Of a stretch of 64,000 nucleotides of DNA, positions 3,639-21,707 are shown piece by piece. The translations under genes were made by a program, and so were the position numbers. Below the pieces are notes generated by a model. That model ran no database searches and was not told where the DNA came from. It saw only the letters and a program-made list of their open reading frames with translations. How positions within the stretch are numbered: the stretch's first letter is position 1; every line of letters starts with the position of its first letter. The stretch lies in assembly GCA_964472785.1 (NCBI GenBank), contig CAYYMH010000011.1, positions 22,783-86,782 on the forward strand, given 5' to 3'. The stretch comes from an uncultured Cytophagia bacterium (GTDB lineage Bacteria; Zhuqueibacterota; Zhuqueibacteria; Thermofontimicrobiales; Thermofontimicrobiaceae).

Positions 3639-4433
3639 TTAGTCTTCAAATAAAAATTGAAAGATACTTTTTTCAGTCTCCACCTTTGACTTTAATAAAT
3701 CTGATTTTCGCTCGCTAACTGTTTCATCTCGTTTACATAGATGCTTGATCAATTTCATATCATCATTCCACCTAACGCCGTCAAAAAACTCGACACCTTT
3801 GTGATCACGGATTTTATACAGCGCTTTGGTCTTGTAACATGTACCGAGATAGACGTAATCCAAATTCTGCTCCATCGCCCAGCGGATCGTCCGCCACATC
3901 ATCCATTTGCCCAATGAATGCGATTTTAAATAATCGAGGTCAAAAAAGGAGTACCAGTAATGGAGCGTGTTACCGTGAATCGCCGCACAGACATAACCAT
4001 ACGTTTTTTCAACCGATCTAAAAATGAGGATGTGGCTCAAGATATTCCCGTTGAAAATGTACTTAATCCGGGCTTCATCCATTCGTCCGCCATCGAAGCG
4101 GGTTTCAGCGTATTGTTTGCAAAAGCCTAAAAAATCATTTTCGTTGGTATCAAAATCTGATTTTTGAACAGGTATCAAATCAATCTTCAGTGGTTCGACC
4201 AAACGGTTCACTCGCCGGTTTTCCGAGGTATCTGTAAATTTATCCAGATTGATCCGCACACTTCGAGCCAGATAAAAAATGTCTTTTTTAATAGAGAAAT
4301 CCCCTGTAAATGGCAAAAAACCTTTTGCGTAGATTTCGGGAATTTCCTGTTGAGTTTCTTTGACGCAATATACGCCAAAGGAAAAAGTGTAGGTTTGATA
4401 ATCGATTTGGTGTTGTGAGAAGATGAGTTTCAT
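3639..4433 (-). CDS. ATE_C-domain protein (arginyl/leucyl-tRNA--protein transferase, Bpt-like)
   Basis: The C-terminal region HYWYSFFDLDY...SLGKWMMWRTIRWAMEQNLDYVYLG...DGVRW matches the conserved ATE_C/Bpt block (YxFYDPDY...SLG...YVYLGYWI). The start was moved to the internal ATG at 4431-4433 (MKLIFSQ). Confidence 0.55.
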   Translation of the reverse strand: MKLIFSQHQIDYQTYTFSFGVYCVKETQQEIPEIYAKGFLPFTGDFSIKKDIFYLARSVRINLDKFTDTSENRRVNRLVEPLKIDLIPVQKSDFDTNENDFLGFCKQYAETRFDGGRMDEARIKYIFNGNILSHILIFRSVEKTYGYVCAAIHGNTLHYWYSFFDLDYLKSHSLGKWMMWRTIRWAMEQNLDYVYLGTCYKTKALYKIRDHKGVEFFDGVRWNDDMKLIKHLCKRDETVSERKSDLLKSKVETEKSIFQFLFED

Positions 4434-4458
4434 AATCTTATTTGAAATAAATTTACAT

Positions 4459-5433
4459 TCAGCTCCAAGACACGCGATGAGAATACAGACTCTGCGGATG
4501 ACCAATAATATTTATATCAAATTTAAGGGAAGTTTCTACCCTTGAGCTTGCGCTGTGAATTCGAAAAGATATTTGCCAGCCTTTGTCAAAAGTTAAGTGC
4601 AAAGTATTCGTTGAATTATTTTTATAACGGAATTCAATGATGCGTGTTGGGAATTGCAATTTTCCAACATGTATTGAGGGTCTAATTTCATTAGCAGGTT
4701 TGTTCAGTGTCCCATTGAAATTGAAAGCCTGAATAAGTGTAAGTCGATTTTCTTTTATCACTTTGTAAAAGTCTTGTTTACCTATAAGATAGTGGAGTAA
4801 TCTTTCTGGAACAATGGATGGATTTTTTCTGTCAATTTTTAACAACTCATTCCTGAATGCGTTCAGTACTTTCTGATATATTTCGTGTTTTTTAGGTAAT
4901 GAACTCCATAACGTTTTTGACTTACTCAACGGTCTCAGCGCATCAAAAATTTCTTTTACTTTAGTGATATACTCCGATGAACATGGTATTCCAAGCCATT
5001 TTTTACCAAAATCAATTCGACCGGATAATCTTGAGTGTTTCAAGGCGCGATGTTGATTTTTCGCTGAAATTCCAATTTCCCACTGGTGTTTCTTTCTGAT
5101 TGCTAATATGTCTCTTGTATCTCCCACAATACCAGCTTTATCTGAAATTAATTGTAATTCCAAAGCATCATTTTTTGACAAGGGATTCGTAAGCCGAGGT
5201 TCCAATAACATCAAATGCTTAATAGCCGATTCCGACGCTCGTTTGTACTTATGTTGTTCCTTATCACTGCATTTATTAAAACATTCTAACGCTATATCGA
5301 ATGAGCGATCTTCTACAATTTTAACATCTTGTTTATGACTTAACAGTTCATATAATTTTATCAGAAGAGAATATTCAAATGCCTTACCTGTCTCCCTTTG
5401 ACTAAGCGGGGTCATTATTTCTTTCTCCTTCAA
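4459..5433 (-). CDS. putative type II restriction endonuclease (partner of the adjacent Dam-family methyltransferase)
   Basis: 324 aa with no family recognised by eye. The call is positional: it is co-oriented with the upstream methyltransferase and overlaps its stop by 4 nt (ATGA). The gene is low in GC (about 33%) relative to its neighbours. Confidence 0.4.
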   Translation of the reverse strand: MKEKEIMTPLSQRETGKAFEYSLLIKLYELLSHKQDVKIVEDRSFDIALECFNKCSDKEQHKYKRASESAIKHLMLLEPRLTNPLSKNDALELQLISDKAGIVGDTRDILAIRKKHQWEIGISAKNQHRALKHSRLSGRIDFGKKWLGIPCSSEYITKVKEIFDALRPLSKSKTLWSSLPKKHEIYQKVLNAFRNELLKIDRKNPSIVPERLLHYLIGKQDFYKVIKENRLTLIQAFNFNGTLNKPANEIRPSIHVGKLQFPTRIIEFRYKNNSTNTLHLTFDKGWQISFRIHSASSRVETSLKFDINIIGHPQSLYSHRVSWS

Positions 5434-6314
5434 AGATTGAAATAAGCCTGGATATCTTTGCTAAGTATGAGTACTTCTCTCGAATTCTTATCATTTGACA
5501 TACCGTATTTCCAAACGGGAAAAAGTATTTTATAATTCTTATAAAGGTCTAATATTTCAGGACAATTGTTATAAGAAAGAAGCCAGTTGTCTCTATTATC
5601 TAAAATCTTAAACAATGCTAAATGATCAAAATCTCTATGTGCGTCTCCGTTTCTGCCATATAAATTATTCTTTATCAAATAAGGTGGATCCAAATAAAGA
5701 AACATATTGGGATGTCTTTCAATCGAATATCGGAAGTCAAAATTTCGAACTTTTATTAGGGGATTATGAAAGTTTCTGATTCGATCAATTGAAGTTAATG
5801 TAAATCTGGGATGTCCCGGAGACATTCCTCCCGATAAGGTCGAACCAGAGTATGATGATCTATTTAAAACATAAAATACAACGGCTCTTTCTATTTTTGT
5901 TTTAAATGATTTTTGCACTTTTTGTAGATGATAAAATTTTTCTTTTGAAAGAGGATAATATTTTAATACATGGTTTGCGAGTTCATGAGGGTCATCAATC
6001 AAGGATTGCCAAAATTCAACCAAAGGTTTAAATATATCGTATCCAAAAACTTTTATTCCTCTTCCGGTGCAGGCTAATTCAACGGAGCCCCCTCCGATAA
6101 ATGGAGCACACATTTCATCAATGAATTTGGGAATTAGCGACAAAATAATATTGACGGCTCTTGTTTTCCCACCAGGATATCTTAACAGAGATTTTGTAGA
6201 ATATTTTACGGTTTCACAAGTGGTACTAAAAAGATGCTCCAAGGAACCATCGTCTTTCACTACTTTTACGCTTTTGTTTCCCCCAGATACGATGTAGGAA
6301 TGATTTTTAATCAT
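5430..6314 (-). CDS. DNA N6-adenine methyltransferase, Dam/D12 class
   Basis: RYPGGKTR (Dam motif X-like), FIGGGSV (AdoMet-binding motif I) and YLDPPYL (catalytic DPPY motif IV) are all present. Confidence 0.85.
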   Translation of the reverse strand: MIKNHSYIVSGGNKSVKVVKDDGSLEHLFSTTCETVKYSTKSLLRYPGGKTRAVNIILSLIPKFIDEMCAPFIGGGSVELACTGRGIKVFGYDIFKPLVEFWQSLIDDPHELANHVLKYYPLSKEKFYHLQKVQKSFKTKIERAVVFYVLNRSSYSGSTLSGGMSPGHPRFTLTSIDRIRNFHNPLIKVRNFDFRYSIERHPNMFLYLDPPYLIKNNLYGRNGDAHRDFDHLALFKILDNRDNWLLSYNNCPEILDLYKNYKILFPVWKYGMSNDKNSREVLILSKDIQAYFNL

Positions 6315-13675: not shown

Positions 13676-14137
13676 TTATTTTTCCATCAAAGCCTTTTCA
13701 ACTTCACTGACATCCGGTATATCCGACATGGAATAACCGTAATAGACAAATGTGAGAATCCCGGACTTGTCGATCAGCATCTGCGCGGGCATTCTGCCAA
13801 ATTTGAAAATTTTCACTTGCTGTCCGTAAAGCTTTATGACCGAATGTTTCGGATCAGGCAAACCAACGAACGGCAGGGATTCCTTTTGCCAGTATTTTTT
13901 GAACGCCTCGGAGTTTTCCGGTCCCACGACCAACACTTCAACATCTAACTTCTGCAATCTGTCTGCTTCCTGACGCAACTGCGCCATGTGCTTGCGGCAA
14001 AATGGTCACATAAATCCCCGGTTAAAAACCAGCAGCACATTTTTCTTCTCTTTGTAATCAGACAGGGAGACGTTTTCCCCATTAAAATCTTTCAGCGTAA
14101 AATTTGGGGCTTGAGTGTTGAGTTGTGCTTTTGGCAT
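13676..14137 (-). CDS. redoxin/AhpC-TSA-fold thiol:disulfide oxidoreductase with in-frame TGA at the redox-active position (candidate selenoprotein, UxxC)
   Basis: An ATG at 14135-14137 opens 43 sense codons (MPKAQLNTQAPNFTLKDFNGENVSLSDYKEKKNVLLVFNRGFM). A TGA follows at 14006-14008, and the same frame continues as PFCRKHMAQLRQ...EK to the stop. The N-terminal part aligns with the beta1-alpha1 region of BCP/peroxiredoxin (VLYFYPKDDTPGCT). The TGA therefore falls at the first Cys of a CxxC-like pair (U-P-F-C). Confidence 0.5.
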
Positions 14138-14353: not shown

Positions 14354-14397
14354 AAAGACCGCAAGATTCAAATTTAATTTTACTACCTGCGGTCTTT
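14354..14397 (-). other. 10-bp perfect-stem hairpin downstream of the DGR template repeat
   Basis: aaagaccgca (14354-14363) pairs with tgcggtcttt (14388-14397) across a 24-nt loop. On the minus strand a T-tract follows about 10 nt after the stem. It may be a terminator or structured spacer of the DGR RNA. Confidence 0.35.
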
Positions 14398-14520
14398 ATT
14401 TTGTTATTCGTCTCAATTCGCCACAGGCGGACCAAGACAGGAATAAGCCTGTCGTCTATCAAGGCGCTGGATAATCTCCAGTCGGAAAATTATCATCTGA
14501 CCAAAAAACATTACACGATT

Positions 14521-14647
14521 AAAAACTAACGAACACAACGAAACCCGATATTGTTGTTGCTATTGTTCGGATTGTTGTTGTTGCGATTCGCACAACGCGT
14601 GTTGTTGGCATTGTTGTTCCACGAACCGCTCCGCAGCACGCGATCTG
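14521..14647 (-). repeat. DGR template repeat (TR)
   Basis: 127 bp that is about 86% identical to 17110-17236. On the coding (minus) strand it is Asn-codon rich (aac/aat). 14 of the 18 mismatches to the other copy fall at adenines of this copy. Confidence 0.75.
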
Positions 14648-14761
14648 TTTTTTCGGCTTATCCCTTTTCTTTTGAAATAAAGGAGTGAAATGCCTTTACG
14701 CATTTCACGGCGGCGCATAAAGGCGCCGCACTCCATTTTATTATTTGCCGTGCTTTGTGTT

Positions 14762-15124
14762 TCACTTATTGTTATGATTATCAAAAGCTTGTTTTTTTAT
14801 CCAACCGCCAAGCATCTTTCCGATTTCGTTTATTTGAATATTGATTCGTTCATAATAACTGAAATTCCAAAAATTCAACTCCAACGTCACTCGCGTTAAA
14901 ATGCGCAGCCGTTCCAAATAATCACTGGCGCGATATAAAGCGGTTAATTTATCTGTTGAAGTAAAACCAAGCGTAATTTCTTCGATGAATTTCAGACTAC
15001 TGTCCTGTAATCGATGCGAAATAATATATCGCTGCGACTTCGGAAATTTCATCGTCGCTTTGAATAGGTCAACTGACAGTTGATAACTTTTATCAAATAA
15101 CGGGTAATCTTCTTTTCGTTTCAT
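14762..15124 (-). CDS. avd: DGR accessory variability determinant (Avd), four-helix-bundle protein
   Basis: 120 aa. The C-terminal motif EIGKMLGGWIKKQ parallels EVGRILGSWIARV of Bordetella-phage bAvd. It sits between the reverse transcriptase and the TR. Confidence 0.7.
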   Translation of the reverse strand: MKRKEDYPLFDKSYQLSVDLFKATMKFPKSQRYIISHRLQDSSLKFIEEITLGFTSTDKLTALYRASDYLERLRILTRVTLELNFWNFSYYERINIQINEIGKMLGGWIKKQAFDNHNNK

Positions 15125-15131
15125 AATATCC

Positions 15132-15197
15132 GGAGTGCATCGCCTTTATGCGATGCACGTTGCGATGCACGTGCAATGCATAAAGGCATTGCACTCC
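15132..15197. repeat. REP-like palindromic hairpin pair (copy 1)
   Basis: Two inverted units built on ggagtgcatcgcctttatgcgatgcac. Three other copies occur at 16282, 16915 and 21594. It lies between avd and the reverse transcriptase. Confidence 0.7.
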
Positions 15198-15204
15198 AAT
15201 TCCT

Positions 15205-16269
15205 TTATTTTACAAAAATAAAACGATTGAATAAATCTTCCCGCAAACGCCAGGTATCGGCATGTCCCGCGTGACCGATCCATGATTGTACGGATGAATT
15301 GATGGTTTGAAAATCAATGACGCCTTGTTTGTAGTCCTGTTGAAATATTTTCATTCGTTTGGCAAATAATCTGATGTTTGATTTTCGCAAGCGGCGATAT
15401 TCAGGGAAAATACGATAGCCCATAAAATCCGTTCCCTGCGTGACAGGGAATATTGTATTCTTTTTCGGATGAACGGACAAACGCAGCGTTGCCAAAAATC
15501 TGATGATTTCATGCCGTATATTCCACAATTCTGCTTTGGAATCGGACAACACCACAAAGTCATCCATGTAGCGAATATAATGATGGCAGCGAAGAACAAA
15601 TTTCACAAAATAATCCAGCTCGCTCAAATAAATATTCGCCAAAAACTGACTGGTTAAATTTCCGATAGGCAAACCGCGCTGCCGTTCCAGTGGAGTTAGC
15701 AAATCATCATCGCCATACCAGTGCATCACGTATTCATCTTTTAAAATATCTCTGCCGCTATGAATAATGGCGTCTAACAGCCACAGCAGATCGTTGTCCT
15801 TAATTTTTTTTCTTAAAATGGCAAGCAGAATCTCGTGATCGATGCTGGGAAAATACTTTTGAATATCGCATTTAAAAACGTATTTCTTTTTCCTGCAAAA
15901 TTGGGTAAACCGATCCGCTGCTTTATGCTGCCCTTTTCCTTTGCGACAAGCATAAGAATCAAAAATGAATAGCTTTTCGTAGATCGGCTCCAGCACATTG
16001 CAGATGGCGTGATGCACCACCCGATCACGAAACGGCGCCGCCGATACAAGCCGACGTTTGGGTTCCGTAATATAAAAATTATAGTAGCAGCCGACTTGAT
16101 AACTTTTGGAACGTAAATCATCTTGCAATTGAAACAATTCTTTCTCTAAATTTATCTTGAACTGTTCCACATACGGCTTCCATTTTTTCCCTTTTGCCGC
16201 TTTTTTAAAGGCGCTATACAAATTTTTAAAGGTGATAATGTGCGGATAGATATTTTTTATCGTTTTCAT
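15205..16269 (-). CDS. DGR reverse transcriptase
   Basis: The start was moved to the ATG at 16267-16269 (MKTIKN). LPIGNLTSQ is the DGR-specific I/LGxxxSQ variant of the QGxxxSP motif. The YMDD catalytic box is YMDDFVV. The N-terminus SAAPFRDRVVHHAICNVLEPIYE is typical of DGR reverse transcriptases. Confidence 0.9.
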   Translation of the reverse strand: MKTIKNIYPHIITFKNLYSAFKKAAKGKKWKPYVEQFKINLEKELFQLQDDLRSKSYQVGCYYNFYITEPKRRLVSAAPFRDRVVHHAICNVLEPIYEKLFIFDSYACRKGKGQHKAADRFTQFCRKKKYVFKCDIQKYFPSIDHEILLAILRKKIKDNDLLWLLDAIIHSGRDILKDEYVMHWYGDDDLLTPLERQRGLPIGNLTSQFLANIYLSELDYFVKFVLRCHHYIRYMDDFVVLSDSKAELWNIRHEIIRFLATLRLSVHPKKNTIFPVTQGTDFMGYRIFPEYRRLRKSNIRLFAKRMKIFQQDYKQGVIDFQTINSSVQSWIGHAGHADTWRLREDLFNRFIFVK

Positions 16270-16281
16270 AATTTGCCAGAT

Positions 16282-16335
16282 GGAGTGCATCGCCTTTATG
16301 CGATGCACATGCAATGCATAAAGGCATTGCACTCC
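16282..16335. repeat. REP-like palindromic hairpin pair (copy 2)
   Basis: ggagtgcatcgcctttatgcgatgcac followed by atgcaatgcataaaggcattgcactcc. It lies between the reverse transcriptase and rayT. Confidence 0.7.
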
Positions 16336-16339
16336 ATTT

Positions 16340-16888
16340 CTAAAAATCATCGATATCGTTGTAATATGTAATTGTTTGTGGTTTATATGTTAAGAAATTC
16401 TCTCTTAACCTTTCTTCTTCCTGCGCTTTCCAAACACGAAAACTTGAGAATGAGTAATCATTTAAATTTTCTACATAATGATGCTTCACAGGATTATACA
16501 AAATGTATGTCGCTGTTTCATAATAATGTTTTTCATTGCGAATACAGCGATCCCAGTATTGATACCAAAATGGTTTTACATCAATACTCAACTCTTTTTT
16601 TATGTGGAACGCGCTGGTTTTATGCAAGGTATTAAAGAAGCGTGGGATATCATCACTTTTTTTAACGTTTGCCAAAAAATGATAATGATTTTCCAATACA
16701 ACCCAATCGAATATTTCCCATTGATATTTTTCGATAAATTGAAAGAGGTATTTGATAAATATTTCTTTTGTTGTCGGAGTAGAAAGCAAACATCGTTTCT
16801 GATAGACAGCGCCTGTGAAAAAATAGTAGAAATCATCGATAAACCAATGGGTTGGAGCGTGCTTATATCTTTTTATAGTCAGGCTCAT
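16340..16888 (-). CDS. rayT: REP-associated tyrosine transposase (RayT / TnpA_REP, IS200-like Y1 HUH)
   Basis: The start was moved to the ATG at 16886-16888 (MSLTIKRYKH). The HUH motif is WVVLENHYHFL. The C-terminal block YWDRCIRNEKHYYETATYILYNPVKHHYV parallels E. coli RayT FWEHAIRNTKDYRHHVDYIYINPVKHGWV. REP hairpins flank it on both sides. Confidence 0.8.
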   Translation of the reverse strand: MSLTIKRYKHAPTHWFIDDFYYFFTGAVYQKRCLLSTPTTKEIFIKYLFQFIEKYQWEIFDWVVLENHYHFLANVKKSDDIPRFFNTLHKTSAFHIKKELSIDVKPFWYQYWDRCIRNEKHYYETATYILYNPVKHHYVENLNDYSFSSFRVWKAQEEERLRENFLTYKPQTITYYNDIDDF

Positions 16889-16914
16889 ATTGTTATCCGT
16901 GTGTTGTGAAATCC

Positions 16915-17010
16915 ATAAAGGGATTTCACTCCGTTTGGAGTGCATTCCCTTTATGGAATGCACCGCGGAGCATAAAGGCATATTCGCAATGCATAAAGGC
17001 ATTGCACTCC
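16915..17010. repeat. REP-like palindromic hairpin cluster (copy 3, composite)
   Basis: A partial unit (ataaagggatttcactcc) precedes ggagtgcattccctttatggaatgcacc and gcggagcataaaggcatattcgcaatgcataaaggcattgcactcc. It lies between rayT and the variable repeat. Confidence 0.7.
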
Positions 17011-17109
17011 GAAATGCAAAAATTTTTCGTCCGCCTTCGGCGGAACCCAAAAACCCAATTACCAAAACCCAAGTAACCAAATCACAAATCACAAAAAAGA
17101 TAGACGACT

Positions 17110-17236
17110 AAAAACTAACGAACGCAACGAAACCCGATATCGTAGTTACGATAATGCGGGTAGTTGACGAAGCGATTCGCACAACGCGTGTAGTTGGCAT
17201 CGTTGAGCCACGAACCGCTCCGCAGCACGCGATCTG
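17110..17236 (-). repeat. DGR variable repeat (VR) at 3' end of target gene
   Basis: 127 bp homologous to the TR. It covers the last ~41 codons of the 742-aa ORF and includes its stop codon. At TR-adenine positions the codons change from aac/aat to ctc, gat, tac, ttc, gtc, cat, tat and cgt. Confidence 0.75.
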
Positions 17237-19343
17237 CGCCACTCGACGGACCTGTCGGATTTTCATAGGGACTTTTGCCGTAATAATCGCTGCCATACCA
17301 GTCGGCGCACCATTCCCACACGTTGCCGCTCATGTCGTACAAGCCAAGCTCGTTGGATTGCTTAGCGCCCACGGGGTGCGTTTTACCGCCAGAATTGTTA
17401 CTATACCATGCCACACTGCCCACATCGTTGCTGCCGCTGTATGTATACCCTTTCGATTTATTACCGCCGCGCGCGGCATATTCCCACTCCGCTTCCGTGG
17501 GCAACCGTTTGCCCGCCCAGTTGGCGTAGGCATTGGCGCCGTACCATGTGACTTCAATAACGGGGTGATTGGCATAACCGCTCACTGGCACATATTTATT
17601 GCGCTGCTTTACAATTTTACAGTCTGTACCCTTTATATCAAGCCAGGTGGCGCCACCTTCACTCTGGTTGCCTTTCTCATTGAGAAATTTGCAAAATTGT
17701 TCGTTGGTCACTTCGTATTTGTCTATGTAAAAATCCTTCACATACACTTTATGGATGGGTTTTTCGTCATCACCCCCATCATTGCTGCCCATCATAAAGG
17801 CGCCGCCCTGCACATACGCCATGTCGGGATACGTTTTGGATTTGTCGTCAGTACTGGGACTGTTTCTTTGTTCAATCTGCCTGTTTTTTAAACCAAATGG
17901 CGGCTCGGTTTTCTTTTCCTGACTTGCGCTGCTGGCGTCTGCGCTGTGCGATAAGGCGGACATTTTAAACCTCGCCACCACGGTCAGGAAAAAATTATCG
18001 TTATCGCCCGCCACGGGATACAGCCAGATCGTGTCCACATCGCGATACATATCCTGTCCGCCGCCTGTTTTATCCGATTCCAGCATGAAATTGACCACTT
18101 CAGTTTCACGGATAAACTGTTCCACTTTGGAGTAGCTTTGTTTTATCTGCGTGTACACATCGAACGCGGTTTTGGCAATGTCGTCGGCGGGATTGCCTTC
18201 GGCGGTGACATTGGCGGTGAATCGGGCAATCAGCTCCTTTTCTTTAGCGGCGATAAGCTGATTTTTGAGCTGCTCCACCTGGTTGTCGAAATAGCGCAGG
18301 GATTTGTTAATGCTAACTTCGATGTTGTTGGCGTCGTACACCACATTCGTCTTTTCCTGAATGGTTTGTTTGAGAAAACGGCTGCGATTCGCCAGATTGG
18401 TTTGCAACTGTTCAATATCCGAATCAATTTTCGCCAGGTTGGCAAAGCCATTGCGGATAATCTGCTGCTGTCTGCGGCTGGATGTGCTGTTAGAATTGTC
18501 GATCACGGCTTTGCTGGAATTCACTTCAAATTCGATGCTTTTAATTTCAGCGGCGGACACGCCTGCGGACTGCAGTTTGGTTTGATAATTGTAATCGCTC
18601 AATAAATTAACAACGAGATGCGCGCTCGTTGTTTCTGCATAGTCCCTTGTCGCGGCAAGCGATTTCTTGAGCGGCGCTACATTGACTTTGATGAGATATA
18701 AAAATTTAGTTTGTCCAGCAATTTTTTTGAACATAGGCTGCTTTTCAACCGTCATTTCGCCGCTTATTTGCGCTTTGATGCGGTCGGTGAGCAGGCGGTT
18801 GTCTTCAATTACGGTCAGGCTGGAAATAAACACGCCATTCAAATCTTCGATTGCCGTCGGCGCCAGCAGCTTCTCCGCCTGGTCCGACAGTTTTTCTTTG
18901 GACGCCAGGATATCGATATCGTTGAGCAGCACGAGATAAAAACCCTGAAAAGCGATACTGGCCAGATCCTGCTGAACCTGCTGTTCAATATCTTTGCGGC
19001 TTTGCTGCTTCACCGTAATCTGCTCCTGCATTTTCTTGATGTCCACCAGTTTGAGCAGCTCCTGTTTGTCCATGTAAATATTGGTCATCTTGTTTTTCAG
19101 CATGGCGATCTGGTTGTCCACATCGATATTGTTGCGGGTGATCTGAATTTTCAGCTCGTCAATATCCAGCGACTTGCAGAAAAACCGCGCCGTTTTGATT
19201 TTCTGACTCATGGCAGATTTTTGAATACTGCCTTTGTCGAAAATCAACGGACTCGCGGGTTGATAGATTTGAGAGTAAAGAGGAATAGCAAACAGAAATG
19301 ACAGGAATAGACAAACTGTTTTTTTTATCATTTGAATCTCCAA
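17115..19343 (-). CDS. DGR target (variable) protein: secreted coiled-coil-rich protein with C-terminal FGE-sulfatase (C-type-lectin-like) domain
   Basis: It has a signal peptide (MEIQMIKKTVCLFLSFLFAIPLYSQ). The C-terminal roughly 250 aa carry FGE/SUMF1-like motifs (GGAFMMGS, HPVIEVTWYGANAYANWAGKRLPTEAEWEYAARGG, NVWEWCADWY). The VR occupies the C-terminal tail, as in known DGR targets. Confidence 0.75.
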   Translation of the reverse strand: MEIQMIKKTVCLFLSFLFAIPLYSQIYQPASPLIFDKGSIQKSAMSQKIKTARFFCKSLDIDELKIQITRNNIDVDNQIAMLKNKMTNIYMDKQELLKLVDIKKMQEQITVKQQSRKDIEQQVQQDLASIAFQGFYLVLLNDIDILASKEKLSDQAEKLLAPTAIEDLNGVFISSLTVIEDNRLLTDRIKAQISGEMTVEKQPMFKKIAGQTKFLYLIKVNVAPLKKSLAATRDYAETTSAHLVVNLLSDYNYQTKLQSAGVSAAEIKSIEFEVNSSKAVIDNSNSTSSRRQQQIIRNGFANLAKIDSDIEQLQTNLANRSRFLKQTIQEKTNVVYDANNIEVSINKSLRYFDNQVEQLKNQLIAAKEKELIARFTANVTAEGNPADDIAKTAFDVYTQIKQSYSKVEQFIRETEVVNFMLESDKTGGGQDMYRDVDTIWLYPVAGDNDNFFLTVVARFKMSALSHSADASSASQEKKTEPPFGLKNRQIEQRNSPSTDDKSKTYPDMAYVQGGAFMMGSNDGGDDEKPIHKVYVKDFYIDKYEVTNEQFCKFLNEKGNQSEGGATWLDIKGTDCKIVKQRNKYVPVSGYANHPVIEVTWYGANAYANWAGKRLPTEAEWEYAARGGNKSKGYTYSGSNDVGSVAWYSNNSGGKTHPVGAKQSNELGLYDMSGNVWEWCADWYGSDYYGKSPYENPTGPSSGADRVLRSGSWLNDANYTRCANRFVNYPHYRNYDIGFRCVR

Positions 19344-19487
19344 AACTGTATTCTAGTGTAACTTAGCTATTCGTTGATTACTACTGCAAAATTAGCATAT
19401 GCCTTAATATAGAAAATATTAAGTAAGATGTCAACAAAAAATTGCCTCTTTCTGCAAAATATGATTTCTACTTTTCTTTACTTACCC

Positions 19488-19560
19488 GACAACACCGCGG
19501 CAATTCCCACCACGCCGCATTGGGATACGCGTGACGCTTCCAGTGGTAACAGATCAGGAA
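19488..19560 (-). pseudogene. degenerate duplicate of the crtW 3' end (remnant)
   Basis: About 60 bp are roughly 80% identical to 20101-20175. Read on the minus strand it gives CYHWKRHAYPNAAWWELPRCCR, against crtW CYHFGYHWEHHAFPNAAWWELPGYYRKS. Confidence 0.4.
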
Positions 19561-19563
19561 GAC

Positions 19564-19806
19564 TTAAACTGACCCCAACTTCAATCGTTCAGCAATCCAA
19601 ATTTTAATTATAGACTGCCGGGTCACTCCCAGTCTTTTCGCTTCTTTATCAAGAGATTTTATCATCCATATTGGAAAATCCACATTGACACGCTTTTGTT
19701 CCAAACCCGGTCTTTTGGCGTTCTCCAAATCTAAGTAATCTGTCAGATCTTCCCCGTTATCAAATTTCTTATCAAATTCTTCAGCTTTCATATATTTCTT
19801 TTTCAT
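19564..19806 (-). CDS. brnA: BrnA antitoxin (RHH/CopG-like) of BrnT/BrnA type II TA system
   Basis: 80 aa. The C-terminal region KEAKRLGVTRQSIIKIWIAERL is the BrnA-type ribbon-helix-helix. It overlaps the upstream brnT by 26 nt. Confidence 0.7.
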   Translation of the reverse strand: MKKKYMKAEEFDKKFDNGEDLTDYLDLENAKRPGLEQKRVNVDFPIWMIKSLDKEAKRLGVTRQSIIKIWIAERLKLGSV

Positions 19807-20041
19807 TTTTCCTCGCCCTTCGAACTGAAATTAATCTTATTTTTTTATTTCGATACGTAAATATAGCAGCCCAATGTTTGTTATAAATCATGGCGATTAA
19901 AACATATCTTGGCTCATCCAGATGTTTCGTTGGAATTTCAATCCTGTCAGGATCGTTCCATAATTCCTGGGCTTCTATAAAGTCAATACCGTGTTTATCG
20001 TTATTGGCTTTGCTCTTATTCTCGTCAAACTCAAATTCCAT
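19781..20041 (-). CDS. brnT: BrnT toxin (DUF497 ribonuclease)
   Basis: 86 aa. MEFEFDENKSKANNDKHGIDFIEAQELWNDP matches the BrnT N-terminal consensus (F.WD..K...N..KHGV.F.EA..VF.D). Confidence 0.7.
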   Translation of the reverse strand: MEFEFDENKSKANNDKHGIDFIEAQELWNDPDRIEIPTKHLDEPRYVLIAMIYNKHWAAIFTYRNKKIRLISVRRARKNEKEIYES

Positions 20042-20099: not shown

Positions 20100-20819
20100 T
20101 CAGCTTTTCCGATAATACCCCGGCAACTCCCACCACGCCGCATTGGGAAAAGCATGATGCTCCCAGTGATAGCCAAAGTGGTAACAGGTGAGAAAGGAGA
20201 GCAGCAGCGGATAATCGTTGCTTCTGGCGCGGTGTTTGTCTTTGAAGCCTTCGGCGGTGTCCCGGTGTGTCAGGTAGGTACCAAAATAGAATAACTGCAC
20301 CGTGCTCAACAGCGCCGGCGCCACCCAGAATAGAAATATATTGACCATTGCCACGCCTGCCACATGCAGCAGCAGGTTAAAAAGGACTGCCATACCCAGG
20401 ATCTGATACCACGTCAAATAGTGCGTCATAAAGCGCCAGTACCAGCGCCAGAATTGCGGGTGTTCGCCATCGTGGTAATCCGGGTCTCCCTGACTTGCCG
20501 GATATTTGTGGTGATCCCAGTGTTTGGTTTGCAATTTTTTGAACGAGAACAGGGCGTAGAGCAGCAGCGAAAGATGTCCGAAGAAATTATTTACGTTCCG
20601 ATCCGTAGGGAAGATGCTGCCGTGCATCGCGTCGTGAGCCGTGATAAACAGTCCGGTGTATAAAAAGGTCTGCCAGACTACGGCAATAGGGATCAGAAAC
20701 ATCGTTGTGGAATTGAGCTTCAGGGTCAGCAGCCCGTACAGGCTCGCGCCCCAAATGAGCAGAACTGTCATCGCGATAAGCAGTCCTTTGAGCGATTTTT
20801 TTCTTTTTTCATTTTTCAT
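20100..20819 (-). CDS. crtW: beta-carotene ketolase, CrtW-type (membrane di-iron desaturase/hydroxylase fold)
   Basis: The start was moved to the ATG at 20817-20819 (MKNEKRK). The histidine boxes are HDAMHGS, HWDHH and HWEHH. It is the 3'-most gene of the carotenoid operon. Confidence 0.75.
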   Translation of the reverse strand: MKNEKRKKSLKGLLIAMTVLLIWGASLYGLLTLKLNSTTMFLIPIAVVWQTFLYTGLFITAHDAMHGSIFPTDRNVNNFFGHLSLLLYALFSFKKLQTKHWDHHKYPASQGDPDYHDGEHPQFWRWYWRFMTHYLTWYQILGMAVLFNLLLHVAGVAMVNIFLFWVAPALLSTVQLFYFGTYLTHRDTAEGFKDKHRARSNDYPLLLSFLTCYHFGYHWEHHAFPNAAWWELPGYYRKS

Positions 20820-21507: not shown

Positions 21508-21593
21508 TACAACCTAAAAGATATGAACCTCAAAGTTCACGAAGAACACAACGTTTGTAAAGAATTTTTCTGAATCTTTGTGAACTTTAGTTT

Positions 21594-21645
21594 GGAGTGC
21601 AATCCCTTTATGGATTGCATGCATCGCATGAAGGCGATGCACTCC
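21594..21645. repeat. REP-like palindromic hairpin pair (copy 4)
   Basis: ggagtgcaatccctttatggattgcatgc followed by gcatcgcatgaaggcgatgcactcc. It lies intergenic inside the carotenoid operon. Confidence 0.7.
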
Positions 21646-21707
21646 GAGGTACTTATAATTGAAAAGTACTTGACACCTCGCTCTTTTAAGAAGCAAAAAA
21701 ACCATTA

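What the first reader, a model, noticed from the sequence alone, without database searches (positions are those of the whole stretch)
14354..19343. Complete diversity-generating retroelement with adenine-specific TR to VR differences
A 127-bp repeat occurs twice on the minus strand. One copy (14521-14647) lies downstream of an Avd gene and a reverse transcriptase that has the DGR-specific LPIGNLTSQ motif. The other copy (17110-17236) forms the last 41 codons of an FGE-sulfatase-domain protein.
- 14 of the 18 mismatches sit where the first copy has A on the coding strand. Its codons aac/aat/agc become ctc, gat, tac, ttc, gtc, cat, tat and cgt in the other copy.
- The remaining 4 mismatches are silent third-position C/T changes.
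- The TR reading frame is DRVLRSGSWNNNANNTRCANRNNNNPNNSNNNIGFRCVR, against VR ...WLNDANYTRCANRFVNYPHYRNYDIGFRCVR.
This is the hallmark of mutagenic homing. It would diversify the ligand-binding face of a secreted C-type-lectin-fold protein.
Basis: seen in the sequence. Interest (0 to 1): 0.75.

Follow-up and report, generated by a model that had tools for sequence, protein, structure and literature searches.

The report
Complete DGR invaded by REP elements
This is a genuine but ordinary diversity-generating retroelement: a reverse transcriptase, its helper protein Avd and a template repeat rewrite the tip of a secreted lectin-fold protein. Small mobile REP/RAYT elements have inserted between its parts.

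Summary

- **Repeat:** TR 14521-14647 and VR 17110-17236 (minus strand) differ at 18 of 127 positions. Fourteen of these fall on TR adenines (Fisher p = 5e-6). The other four are silent transitions.
- **Proteins:** The RT is closest to the PDB entry 8ub7, inferred to be Bordetella phage bRT (E = 1e-52, against 1e-18 for group II intron RTs). Avd passes Pfam bAvd. The target ends in an FGE-sulfatase/C-type-lectin domain.
- **Homologues:** In 26 target homologues, codons matching TR adenines have 2.85 bits of entropy, against 0.83 for the other VR codons.
- **RNA elements:** A conserved, covarying structured RNA follows TR. A 10-nt segment of it is 10/10 complementary to the sequence just after VR and 6/10 to the TR copy. 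This fits the primer-IMH model proposed for phage BPP-1.

A REP-associated transposase (RAYT) and REP doublets occupy every junction, one of them inside the avd 3' end. Sister loci show the cassette decaying; in one, REP-REP recombination deleted the RT.

The four silent mismatches argue against recent homing. The verdict is a new member of a known kind, of modest interest.

The parts
17115..19343 (-). Target gene, 742 aa from TTG at 19343. The database homologue P0001 starts 4 codons later at ATG 19331 (738 aa). It has a signal-like N-terminus, a ~500-aa helical/beta N-terminal region of unknown function, and an FGE-sulfatase/C-type-lectin domain at residues 505-742.
17110..17236 (-). VR, the variable repeat. 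The diversified stretch is 17141-17207.
   Evidence: 18 of 127 positions differ from TR, 14 of them at TR adenines. Homologue entropy is 2.85 bits at codons matching TR adenines.
17093..17140 (-). IMH candidate: the invariant 3' end of VR plus its flank. GTCGTCTATC at 17099-17108 is 10/10 complementary to the RNA primer strand downstream of TR.
17030..17044 (-). Short GC hairpin (TCCGCC-GAAG-GGCGGA) downstream of the target gene. It is probably the target gene terminator, and possibly the stem-loop that aids homing.
   Evidence: Sequence read, coordinates. Function is inferred.
16906..17015 (.). Cluster of REP palindromes upstream of the RAYT gene.
16340..16888 (-). REP-associated tyrosine transposase (RAYT, 182 aa), inserted between VR and RT. 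It is not a DGR component.
   Evidence: NCBIfam NF047646 92.8 bits (cut-off 80) and Pfam Y1_Tnp. Gene call. Absent at this position in L002 and L003.
16278..16340 (.). REP doublet upstream of RT. It forms a 42-nt, 95% identical direct repeat with the doublet downstream of RT.
   Evidence: (D4).
15205..16269 (-). DGR reverse transcriptase, 354 aa from MKTIKN. The ORF listing extends it to 16350 through REP sequence.
   Evidence: RVT_1. 8ub7 E = 1e-52 against group II intron RTs at 1e-18. BPP-1 brt 35% identity, 95% coverage, E = 9e-47. L003 orthologue is 354 aa.
15128..15202 (.). REP doublet inserted between RT and avd. In relatives the RT stop and avd start abut.
14762..15124 (-). Avd accessory protein, 120 aa. 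Its C-terminal tail was changed by the insertion from ...GGWIKKEKG* in relatives to ...GGWIKKQAFDNHNNK*.
   Evidence: Pfam bAvd 60.4 bits (cut-off 40). NCBIfam DivGenRetAVD 77.5 bits (cut-off 80). Alignment.
14674..14795 (.). Insertion of about 122 nt carrying a REP doublet (14679-14738) inside the 3' end of avd. It is absent in L002, L003 and L006.
14655..14665 (-). Upstream strand AGGGAUAAGCC. It is predicted to pair with 14439-14449, as the avd:Sp 'cPRT Stop' duplex does in BPP-1. The insertion leaves it intact.
   Evidence: One compensatory change in L007. Model from bioRxiv 10.1101/2023.10.23.563531.
14521..14647 (-). TR, the template repeat, with 15 AAY codons.
14504..14551 (-). IMH* candidate. 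It reads TAATCGTG where VR reads TAGTCGTC, and the same difference is seen in four other related loci (L002, L003, L004, L007).
14470..14497 (-). Stem-loop 1 downstream of TR, a candidate Avd-binding stem-loop.
   Evidence: 10 pairs, 91.5% of cells paired in 6 loci.
14451..14460 (-). Candidate RNA primer strand GAUAGACGAC. The adjacent adenosines 14452 and 14450 are candidate priming sites.
   Evidence: 10/10 complementary to the VR flank and 6/10 to the TR flank. Compensatory change in L007. Same relation in BPP-1, proposed in PMC5703328.
14439..14449 (-). Downstream strand GGCUUAUUCCU of the predicted long-range duplex.
14410..14438 (-). Stem-loop 2, followed by an A-rich tract at 14394-14409.
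   Evidence: 13 pairs, 6 of them with compensatory changes.
14354..14397 (-). Stem-loop 3, a long terminal hairpin at the end of the conserved element.
   Evidence: 9+3 pairs, 98% and 94% of cells paired.

Best explanation
The region is a chromosomal diversity-generating retroelement with the gene order target(VR) - RT - avd - TR - structured RNA, all on the minus strand.

**Inferred mechanism, by homology with Bordetella phage BPP-1.** A transcript carries the avd 3' end, TR and the roughly 170-nt downstream element. This RNA binds the RT-Avd complex. An adenosine in the downstream element, next to GAUAGACGAC, primes cDNA synthesis across TR, and the RT misincorporates opposite template adenines. 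The RNA-linked cDNA then replaces VR. Direction is set because the primer strand pairs perfectly with the sequence just after VR and poorly with the TR copy. The result randomises about 20 codons, 15 of them AAY, on the ligand-binding face of a secreted FGE/C-type-lectin-fold protein.

**What is shown.** The parts are present, the TR-VR mismatches are adenine-specific, the RNA structure is conserved and covaries, the primer-IMH complementarity exists, and homologues are hypervariable at the templated codons.

**What is inferred.** cDNA priming, homing and current activity are inferred.

The cassette has been colonised by a RAYT transposase and REP doublets at every junction, but its ORFs and cis elements are intact. 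Four silent non-adenine TR/VR differences indicate that homing has not happened recently.
For: - **Mismatches:** 14 of 18 fall at TR adenines, p = 5e-6.
- **RT:** Best PDB match is 8ub7, a 328-aa 'Reverse transcriptase' inferred to be bRT, at E = 1e-52; the best group II intron RT is at 2.4e-18. BPP-1 brt and the ANMV-1 DGR RT are among full-length tblastn hits. All NCBIfam group II intron, retron and defence RT models score far below their cut-offs.
- **Avd:** Pfam bAvd 60.4 bits against a cut-off of 40.
- **Target:** FGE-sulfatase domain related to TvpA.
- **Family-level diversification:** In 26 homologues, entropy is 2.85 bits at codons with TR adenines, 0.83 at other VR codons and 1.16 in the rest of the protein (Mann-Whitney p = 1e-11).
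- **Orthologous cassettes:** L002, L003, L004 and L007 also show A-specific TR/VR mismatches and the same IMH/IMH* difference.
- **Downstream RNA:** 35 pairs, 93.8% of cells paired, 10 pairs with compensatory changes; slid controls give 33-53% paired and 3 or fewer.
- **Primer strand:** 10/10 complementary to the VR flank and 6/10 to the TR flank, with a compensatory change in L007. The same relation holds in BPP-1, as proposed in PMC5703328.
Against: - Four non-adenine TR/VR differences, all synonymous, mean that VR or TR has drifted since the last homing event.
- A 122-nt REP insertion altered the Avd C-terminus and separates avd from TR.
- One REP hairpin followed by a T-rich tract lies between avd and TR and could terminate transcription.
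- Related loci show the cassette being lost repeatedly.
- NCBIfam's Avd model scores 77.5, just under its cut-off of 80.
- No read-level or strain-level VR variation could be examined. The only other copy found is 100% identical.
Confidence: 0.88

Rival explanations
1. The cassette is a DGR relic. It is structurally complete but no longer homes, having been silenced by the REP/RAYT insertions or by other means, and it is on its way to the decayed states seen in sister loci.
For: - Four silent non-A mismatches in 90 non-A positions.
- REP insertions at all three junctions, one inside the avd 3' end.
- A terminator-like REP hairpin between avd and TR.
- Decay in relatives: L006 lost RT by REP-REP recombination and its TR slot is A-mutagenised. 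L004 has a truncated RT and no avd. L007 has no RT or avd. L020 and L023 have no DGR near the target.
Against: - RT (354 aa, YMDD, PIGNLTSQ) and Avd ORFs are intact and 88-90% identical to the compact L003 cassette.
- TR keeps all 15 AAY codons.
- The upstream strand, primer strand, IMH and all three stem-loops are intact.
- Intact relatives L002 and L003 also carry 2-4 non-A mismatches, so such mismatches are usual in this family.
Confidence: 0.35
2. The two copies are an ordinary segmental duplication or gene conversion tract, and the RT nearby is coincidental.
For: Two direct repeats 2.6 kb apart could arise by duplication.
Against: - The adenine bias has p = 5e-6.
- The A-rich copy is non-coding and consists of AAY codons.
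- RT and Avd lie adjacent.
- The same arrangement and bias occur in at least four related loci.
Confidence: 0.01
3. The RT belongs to a group II intron, retron or defence RT system rather than a DGR.
For: NCBIfam's top-scoring model is group II intron RT/maturase, and several annotated phage homologues are labelled 'retron-type'.
Against: - The group II intron model scores 156 bits against a cut-off of 300, and retron and Drt models score 25-58 bits against cut-offs of 200-600.
- The inferred bRT entry scores 182 bits against 69 for the best group II intron RT.
- Rfam finds no intron or retron RNA in the window.
- The 'retron-type' labels are generic annotations on known DGR phages.
Confidence: 0.01

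Closest known systems
Treponema denticola DGR and its target TvpA (FGE-sulfatase / CLec1 target class; category 'b' of Wu et al. 2018, PMC5758913)
   Different: The Treponema DGR has an HRDC accessory gene (architecture C). This one has only avd. The 500-aa N-terminal region (two repeats of a long helix plus a small sheet) has no Pfam match. The host lineage appears to be candidate division KSB1.
Bordetella phage BPP-1 DGR (mtd-avd-TR-Sp-brt)
   Same: It has RT plus Avd, and TR directly follows the avd 3' end. A structured RNA downstream of TR includes a stem-loop near TR and a strand complementary to the avd 3' end, followed by a stem-loop and an A-rich tract. A primer strand is complementary to IMH but not to IMH*.
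   Different: The gene order is target-RT-avd-TR-Sp rather than target-avd-TR-Sp-RT, so the structured RNA is the last element and ends in its own long hairpin. The target is an FGE-type rather than an Mtd-type lectin fold. The element is chromosomal, not phage-borne. RT identity is only 35%.
RAYT/REP (REPIN) systems
   Same: The window has a Y1 transposase matching the REP-associated tyrosine transposase model above its cut-off. Paired 27-nt palindromes GGAGTGCATNSCCTTTATGSNATGCAC flank it and are scattered nearby: 7 matches in the window against 0 expected.
   Different: Here the REP doublets sit inside a DGR cassette, at the VR/RT, RT/avd and avd/TR junctions. A full-text search found no paper that holds both terms.

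Membership tests
Diversity-generating retroelement (DGR) | TR/VR repeat pair whose differences fall almost only at TR adenines | tested here: met
   14 of 18 mismatches fall at the 37 adenines of a 127-nt TR, Fisher p = 5.1e-6. The other 4 are silent transitions.
Diversity-generating retroelement (DGR) | Reverse transcriptase of the DGR clade, with the [LIV]GxxxSQ motif instead of the group II intron QGxxxSP | tested here: met
   PIGNLTSQ and YMDD are present. The best PDB hit is 8ub7, a 328-aa RT inferred to be BPP-1 bRT, at E = 1e-52; group II intron RTs reach 2e-18. BPP-1 brt aligns at 35% identity over 95% of the protein. No formal phylogeny was built.
Diversity-generating retroelement (DGR) | Avd accessory protein (four-helix bundle) next to the RT | tested here: met
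   Pfam PF22296 bAvd 60.4 bits against a cut-off of 40. NCBIfam NF033474 77.5 bits against 80, marginally below. No direct PDB sequence hit.
Diversity-generating retroelement (DGR) | VR at the 3' end of a target gene encoding a C-type-lectin or Ig-fold binding domain | tested here: met
Diversity-generating retroelement (DGR) | IMH at the VR 3' end that differs from IMH* at the TR 3' end | tested here: met
   VR reads TAGTCGTC and TR reads TAATCGTG in the window and in L002, L004 and L007; L003 is the same except that its VR lacks the A (TGTCGTC). The VR flank is 10/10 complementary to the primer strand and the TR flank 6/10.
Diversity-generating retroelement (DGR) | Cis-acting RNA around TR: an upstream avd segment and a structured downstream spacer | tested here: met
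   The ~170-nt element downstream of TR is conserved in 6 loci. It has 35 pairs, 93.8% of cells paired and 10 pairs with compensatory changes. An 11-bp upstream:downstream duplex is predicted, with one compensatory change. There are only six sequences, so support is moderate.
Diversity-generating retroelement (DGR) | Ongoing mutagenic homing, seen as VR heterogeneity within a population | not testable with these tools
   No reads are available. The only other copy (Logan SRR7048221) is identical and its contig ends 94 nt upstream of VR. Between-homologue hypervariability at the templated codons is shown.
Group II intron RT / retron RT / defence RTs | Score above the family's curated cut-off, and an associated intron or msr-msd RNA | tested here: not met
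   TIGR04416 scores 156 against 300, retron St85 56 against 235, and Drt2-5 27-58 against 200-550. No Rfam family is matched in the window.
RAYT/REP (REPIN) element | Y1 transposase of the RAYT family flanked by REP palindromes | tested here: met
   NF047646 scores 92.8 against 80. REP doublets flank the gene at 16278-16340 and 16906-17015, and further copies lie at 14679-14738, 15128-15202 and 21590-21650.

The most novel reading that the evidence does not exclude
This DGR family may give the first comparative evidence, including compensatory changes, for an unresolved step of mutagenic retrohoming: that the direction of homing is set by base pairing between the RNA primer strand linked to the cDNA and the IMH DNA just after VR.

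In L007 the primer strand and the VR flank changed together (GACAGACGAC with GTCGTCTGTC), and L004 shows a partial case. The relation holds from Bordetella phage to KSB1-like bacteria.

In addition, REP doublets flanking the RT may act as a recombinational off-switch, as seen in L006, where the TR slot was also overwritten by an adenine-mutagenised copy.
Probability: 0.35. Interest if true: 0.5.

Novelty: new member of a known kind. Interest (0 to 1): 0.3.

Why it matters
As a DGR it adds little. FGE-sulfatase/lectin-fold targets are the commonest class, and tens of thousands of DGRs are catalogued.

Its value is as a natural comparative series. Close relatives give an intact compact cassette (L002, L003), a REP/RAYT-invaded but complete cassette (this window), an RT-deleted cassette with a corrupted template (L006), and orphaned targets with or without TR (L007, L020, L023).

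This series documents how DGRs are lost. It also gives sequence covariation that bears on how the cDNA finds VR. A 2026 study of the BPP-1 system still calls that step 'incompletely understood' (PMC12875486).

Tried and rejected
- **Metagenome scan:** A pattern for the conserved downstream RNA motif gave 12 loci, but only L009 is a real relative. Covariation therefore rests on six loci.
- **Generality of the primer-IMH rule:** A generic test on seven other DGRs (L022, L005 and five phage DGRs) found no complementarity above shuffled controls. The rule is supported only for this family and BPP-1.
- **Avd structure:** A PDB sequence search with Avd found nothing.
- **RNA genes:** Rfam and tRNA scans of the window were empty.
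- **Strain variants:** The exact look-up of the 738-aa target version was not on record. The cluster look-up gave no accession or name. The organism is therefore inferred only from homologues labelled candidate division KSB1; related MAGs carry inconsistent labels.
- **8ub7 identity:** I could not confirm from text that 8ub7 is bRT. The inference rests on its 328-aa length, the alignment and the separate BPP-1 brt hit.
- **Ancestral TR for the non-A mismatches:** I asked whether a template like L003's would explain them. It would not; four non-A differences remain by my reading of the L003 TR printed against the window VR.
- **Local hairpin at 14439-14455:** The GACAGG/CCUGUC hairpin competes with the long-range duplex. 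It is broken in L006 and L007, whereas the long-range pairing is kept.
- **RAYT site preference:** The Y1 transposase after the target in L023 is unrelated to this RAYT, so there is no evidence for a shared insertion.

Full report
**1. The observation**

The repeat finder reports a 144-nt direct repeat, 14504-14647 against 17093-17236, at 84% identity. Over the quoted 127 nt (14521-14647 against 17110-17236, read on the minus strand) there are 18 mismatches.

- Fourteen mismatches lie where the first copy has A. That copy has 37 A among 127 bases.
- Four lie at non-A positions (Fisher exact p = 5.1e-6, odds ratio 13).
- The four non-A differences (14571 T>C, 14565 C>T, 14559 C>T, 14535 T>C) are all third-position transitions that leave the VR amino acid unchanged.
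- The reading frames are exactly as quoted.
- No further copy exists in the window.

Three minor corrections apply. Homology continues about 17 nt past the stop codon. The coding part of VR is 39 codons plus 2 nt. The RT ORF is over-extended at its 5' end through a REP element.

**2. The genes**

- **RT (15205-16269).** It matches RVT_1. Its best solved-structure relative by a wide margin is 8ub7, a 328-aa reverse transcriptase (E = 1.2e-52, 182 bits). The best group II intron RT scores 69 bits. The alignment shows PIGNLTSQ against PIGSLTSQ, and YMDD. I could not find the accession in text. A tblastn search against phage genomes independently gives BPP-1 brt at 35% identity over 95% of the protein (E = 9e-47), plus ANMV-1 and other DGR-bearing phages. 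All NCBIfam group II intron, retron and defence RT models fall far below their cut-offs.
- **Avd (14762-15124).** It passes Pfam bAvd (60.4 bits against 40). It is marginal for NCBIfam DivGenRetAVD (77.5 against 80).
- **Context.** The neighbours are chromosomal: carotenoid genes, an ABC transporter, a restriction-modification pair and a BrnT/BrnA pair. There is no tRNA or Rfam hit.

**3. Evidence from relatives**

The target has about 30 full-length homologues, and those with names are labelled candidate division KSB1. In an alignment of 26 of them, the scaffold RVLRGGSW...RCA.R...P...GFRCVR is conserved. The positions that match TR codons with adenine at position 1 or 2 are hypervariable.

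| Codon set | Mean entropy (bits) |
|---|---|
| VR codons with TR adenine at position 1 or 2 | 2.85 |
| Other VR codons | 0.83 |
| Rest of the protein | 1.16 |

The difference from the rest of the protein has Mann-Whitney p = 1e-11.

Loci with related RTs share the order target-RT-avd-TR (L003 90%, L002 82%, L004 80% but truncated). They also have A-specific TR/VR mismatches: 18 of 20 in L002, 22 of 29 in L003 and 16 of 18 in L004. L007 has 19 of 20. In the window and in L002, L003, L004 and L007 the 3' ends differ in the same way. VR reads TAGTCGTC and TR reads TAATCGTG (in L003 the VR lacks the A, reading TGTCGTC), which is what IMH and IMH* should look like. L006 is the exception: its TR slot reads the hybrid TAGTCGTG (see section 6).

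**4. The RNA around TR**

About 170 nt downstream of TR (14354-14503) are conserved in six loci.

- RNAalifold and a pair count support three stem-loops. There are 35 pairs, 93.8% of cells are paired, and 10 pairs carry compensatory changes. Slid controls give 33-53% paired and at most 3 compensatory pairs.
- The single sequence folds with z = -2.9.
- The layout fits what Handa et al. describe for BPP-1 and predict for 207 of 278 Avd-containing DGRs (bioRxiv 10.1101/2023.10.23.563531). That layout is a stem-loop just after TR, then a duplex between a strand upstream of TR and a strand downstream, followed by a stem-loop and adenosines.
- Here AGGGAUAAGCC (14655-14665) can pair over 11 bp with GGCUUAUUCCU (14439-14449). 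All single-sided changes in relatives keep pairing by wobble. L007 has a compensatory C>U / G>A change. The competing local hairpin is broken in L006 and L007.
- With six sequences this is moderate evidence.

**5. Primer strand and IMH**

Immediately 5' of that strand lies GAUAGACGAC (14451-14460).

| Locus | Complementarity of primer strand to VR flank |
|---|---|
| Window | 10/10 (GTCGTCTATC, 17099-17108) |
| L002 | 10/10 |
| L003 | 9/10 |
| L006 | 9/10 |
| L007 | 10/10, through a compensatory change (GACAGACGAC with GTCGTCTGTC) |
| L004 | 7/10 |

The equivalent TR flank (ATCGTGTAAT) reaches only 6/10 by position-by-position pairing in the window; the scan found no site in any TR flank scoring above 6-7 of 10.

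In BPP-1, Sp48-56 (AGGUGGUCA, ending at the priming A56) is 9/9 complementary to the VR IMH and 6/8 to the TR IMH*. Naorem et al. 2017 already proposed that this difference explains the direction of homing (PMC5703328, Discussion). So this is confirmation in a distant lineage, not a discovery. A crude test on seven other DGRs found nothing above shuffles, so generality is not shown.

**6.

The ORF between VR and RT (16340-16888) is a REP-associated tyrosine transposase (NF047646, 92.8 bits against a cut-off of 80). The palindrome GGAGTGCATNSCCTTTATGSNATGCAC occurs 7 times in the window against 0 expected, as doublets at these positions:

- 16906-17015 and 16278-16340, flanking the RAYT gene;
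- 15128-15202, between RT and avd;
- 14679-14738, inside a roughly 122-nt insertion in the avd 3' end;
- 21590-21650.

Alignment with the compact L002 and L003 cassettes shows these are insertions. In relatives the RT stop abuts the avd start, and Avd ends ...GGWIKKEKG* about 15 nt before TR. In the window Avd ends ...GGWIKKQAFDNHNNK*. The insertion spares the 28 nt just upstream of TR, including the predicted duplex strand.

Sister loci show decay.

- **L006** (target about 90% identical in DNA) has the RAYT but lacks RT. One REP doublet carries the left flank of the upstream copy and the right flank of the downstream copy. RT was therefore deleted by recombination between the two 95%-identical doublets that flank it in the window. 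Its TR slot holds an adenine-mutagenised, VR-like copy: 20 of 28 differences from the window TR are at adenines. Its IMH* has moved towards IMH.
- **L004** has RT truncated at residue 171 and no avd.
- **L007** has TR and the downstream RNA but neither RT nor avd.
- **L020 and L023** have only the target.
- **L022** serves the same target family with a different cassette, HRDC-avd-RT-TR.

**7. Activity**

All ORFs and cis elements are intact, so the cassette looks competent. Three points argue the other way.

- The four synonymous non-adenine differences cannot come from one round of homing. They imply drift under purifying selection since the last event. Intact relatives carry 2-4 such differences too, so homing appears rare in this family.
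- A REP hairpin with a T-rich tail between avd and TR could reduce read-through.
- No read-level data could be examined. The only other copy is identical, and its contig ends 94 nt upstream of VR.

I put the probability of a non-functional relic at about 0.35.

**8. Comparison and novelty**

FGE-sulfatase CLec1 targets are the largest category in Wu et al. 2018 (19%). ORFs nested between DGR components are also recorded there (PMC5758913). The core order RT-avd-TR is not among the listed B1-B3 orders (avd-TR-RT, avd-RT-TR, TR-(avd)-RT), but it keeps the avd-TR-spacer unit and is a permutation, not a new kind. No paper in the searched library mentions DGRs together with RAYTs.

The verdict is a new member of a known kind. 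The theoretical repertoire is about 15^15 x 4^5, or roughly 4e20 proteins. This is my own arithmetic from the 15 AAY codons and five other adenine-bearing codons counted.

Noticed in passing
window 13676-14137 (-), in-frame TGA at 14006-14008: The peroxiredoxin-like gene just downstream of the DGR is called only as a 103-aa C-terminal fragment. The frame continues upstream to an ATG at 14137 through a single TGA that sits in a U-P-F-C motif (…NRGFM*PFCRKH…). This is a candidate selenocysteine (UxxC) redox protein rather than a pseudogene. No SECIS element was verified.
   Followed up: partly
window 19481-19548 and 20104-20171: A 68-nt direct repeat (82% identical) brackets the BrnT/BrnA toxin-antitoxin pair (19564-20041). 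One copy is the 3' end of the FA_desaturase (carotenoid ketolase-like) gene. It looks like the footprint of the TA module's insertion.
   Followed up: no
L006:5518-6640 (GCA_964605145.1, CAZSBG010000153.1): In this sister locus the RT is precisely deleted between the two REP doublets that flank RT in the window. Its TR slot carries an adenine-mutagenised, VR-like sequence with a hybrid IMH*/IMH (AGTCGTG). This looks like a natural case of template self-mutagenesis.
   Followed up: partly
L007:3780-4920 (GCA_016927835.1, candidate division KSB1): The target gene is followed by a DUF559 ORF, then an intact A-rich TR and the structured downstream RNA. There is no RT or avd on the 8.9-kb contig. 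This is either a recent loss or a TR served in trans.
   Followed up: no
window 17330 (end of Logan contig SRR7048221_58364): An independent assembly of the same sequence is 100% identical over 12.1 kb but breaks 94 nt upstream of VR. This could reflect VR heterogeneity or TR/VR repeat confusion in the reads.
   Followed up: no
L022:1417-5577 and L023:5001-8064: Homologues of the same target family are served by a different cassette in L022 (HRDC-avd-RT-TR). In L023 the target is followed by an unrelated Y1 transposase with no DGR nearby.
   Followed up: partly
window 3639-6314 (-): A HaeIII-type restriction endonuclease lies next to a D12-class N6-adenine methyltransferase, about 8 kb from the DGR. 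The region is rich in accessory and defence-type modules.
   Followed up: no
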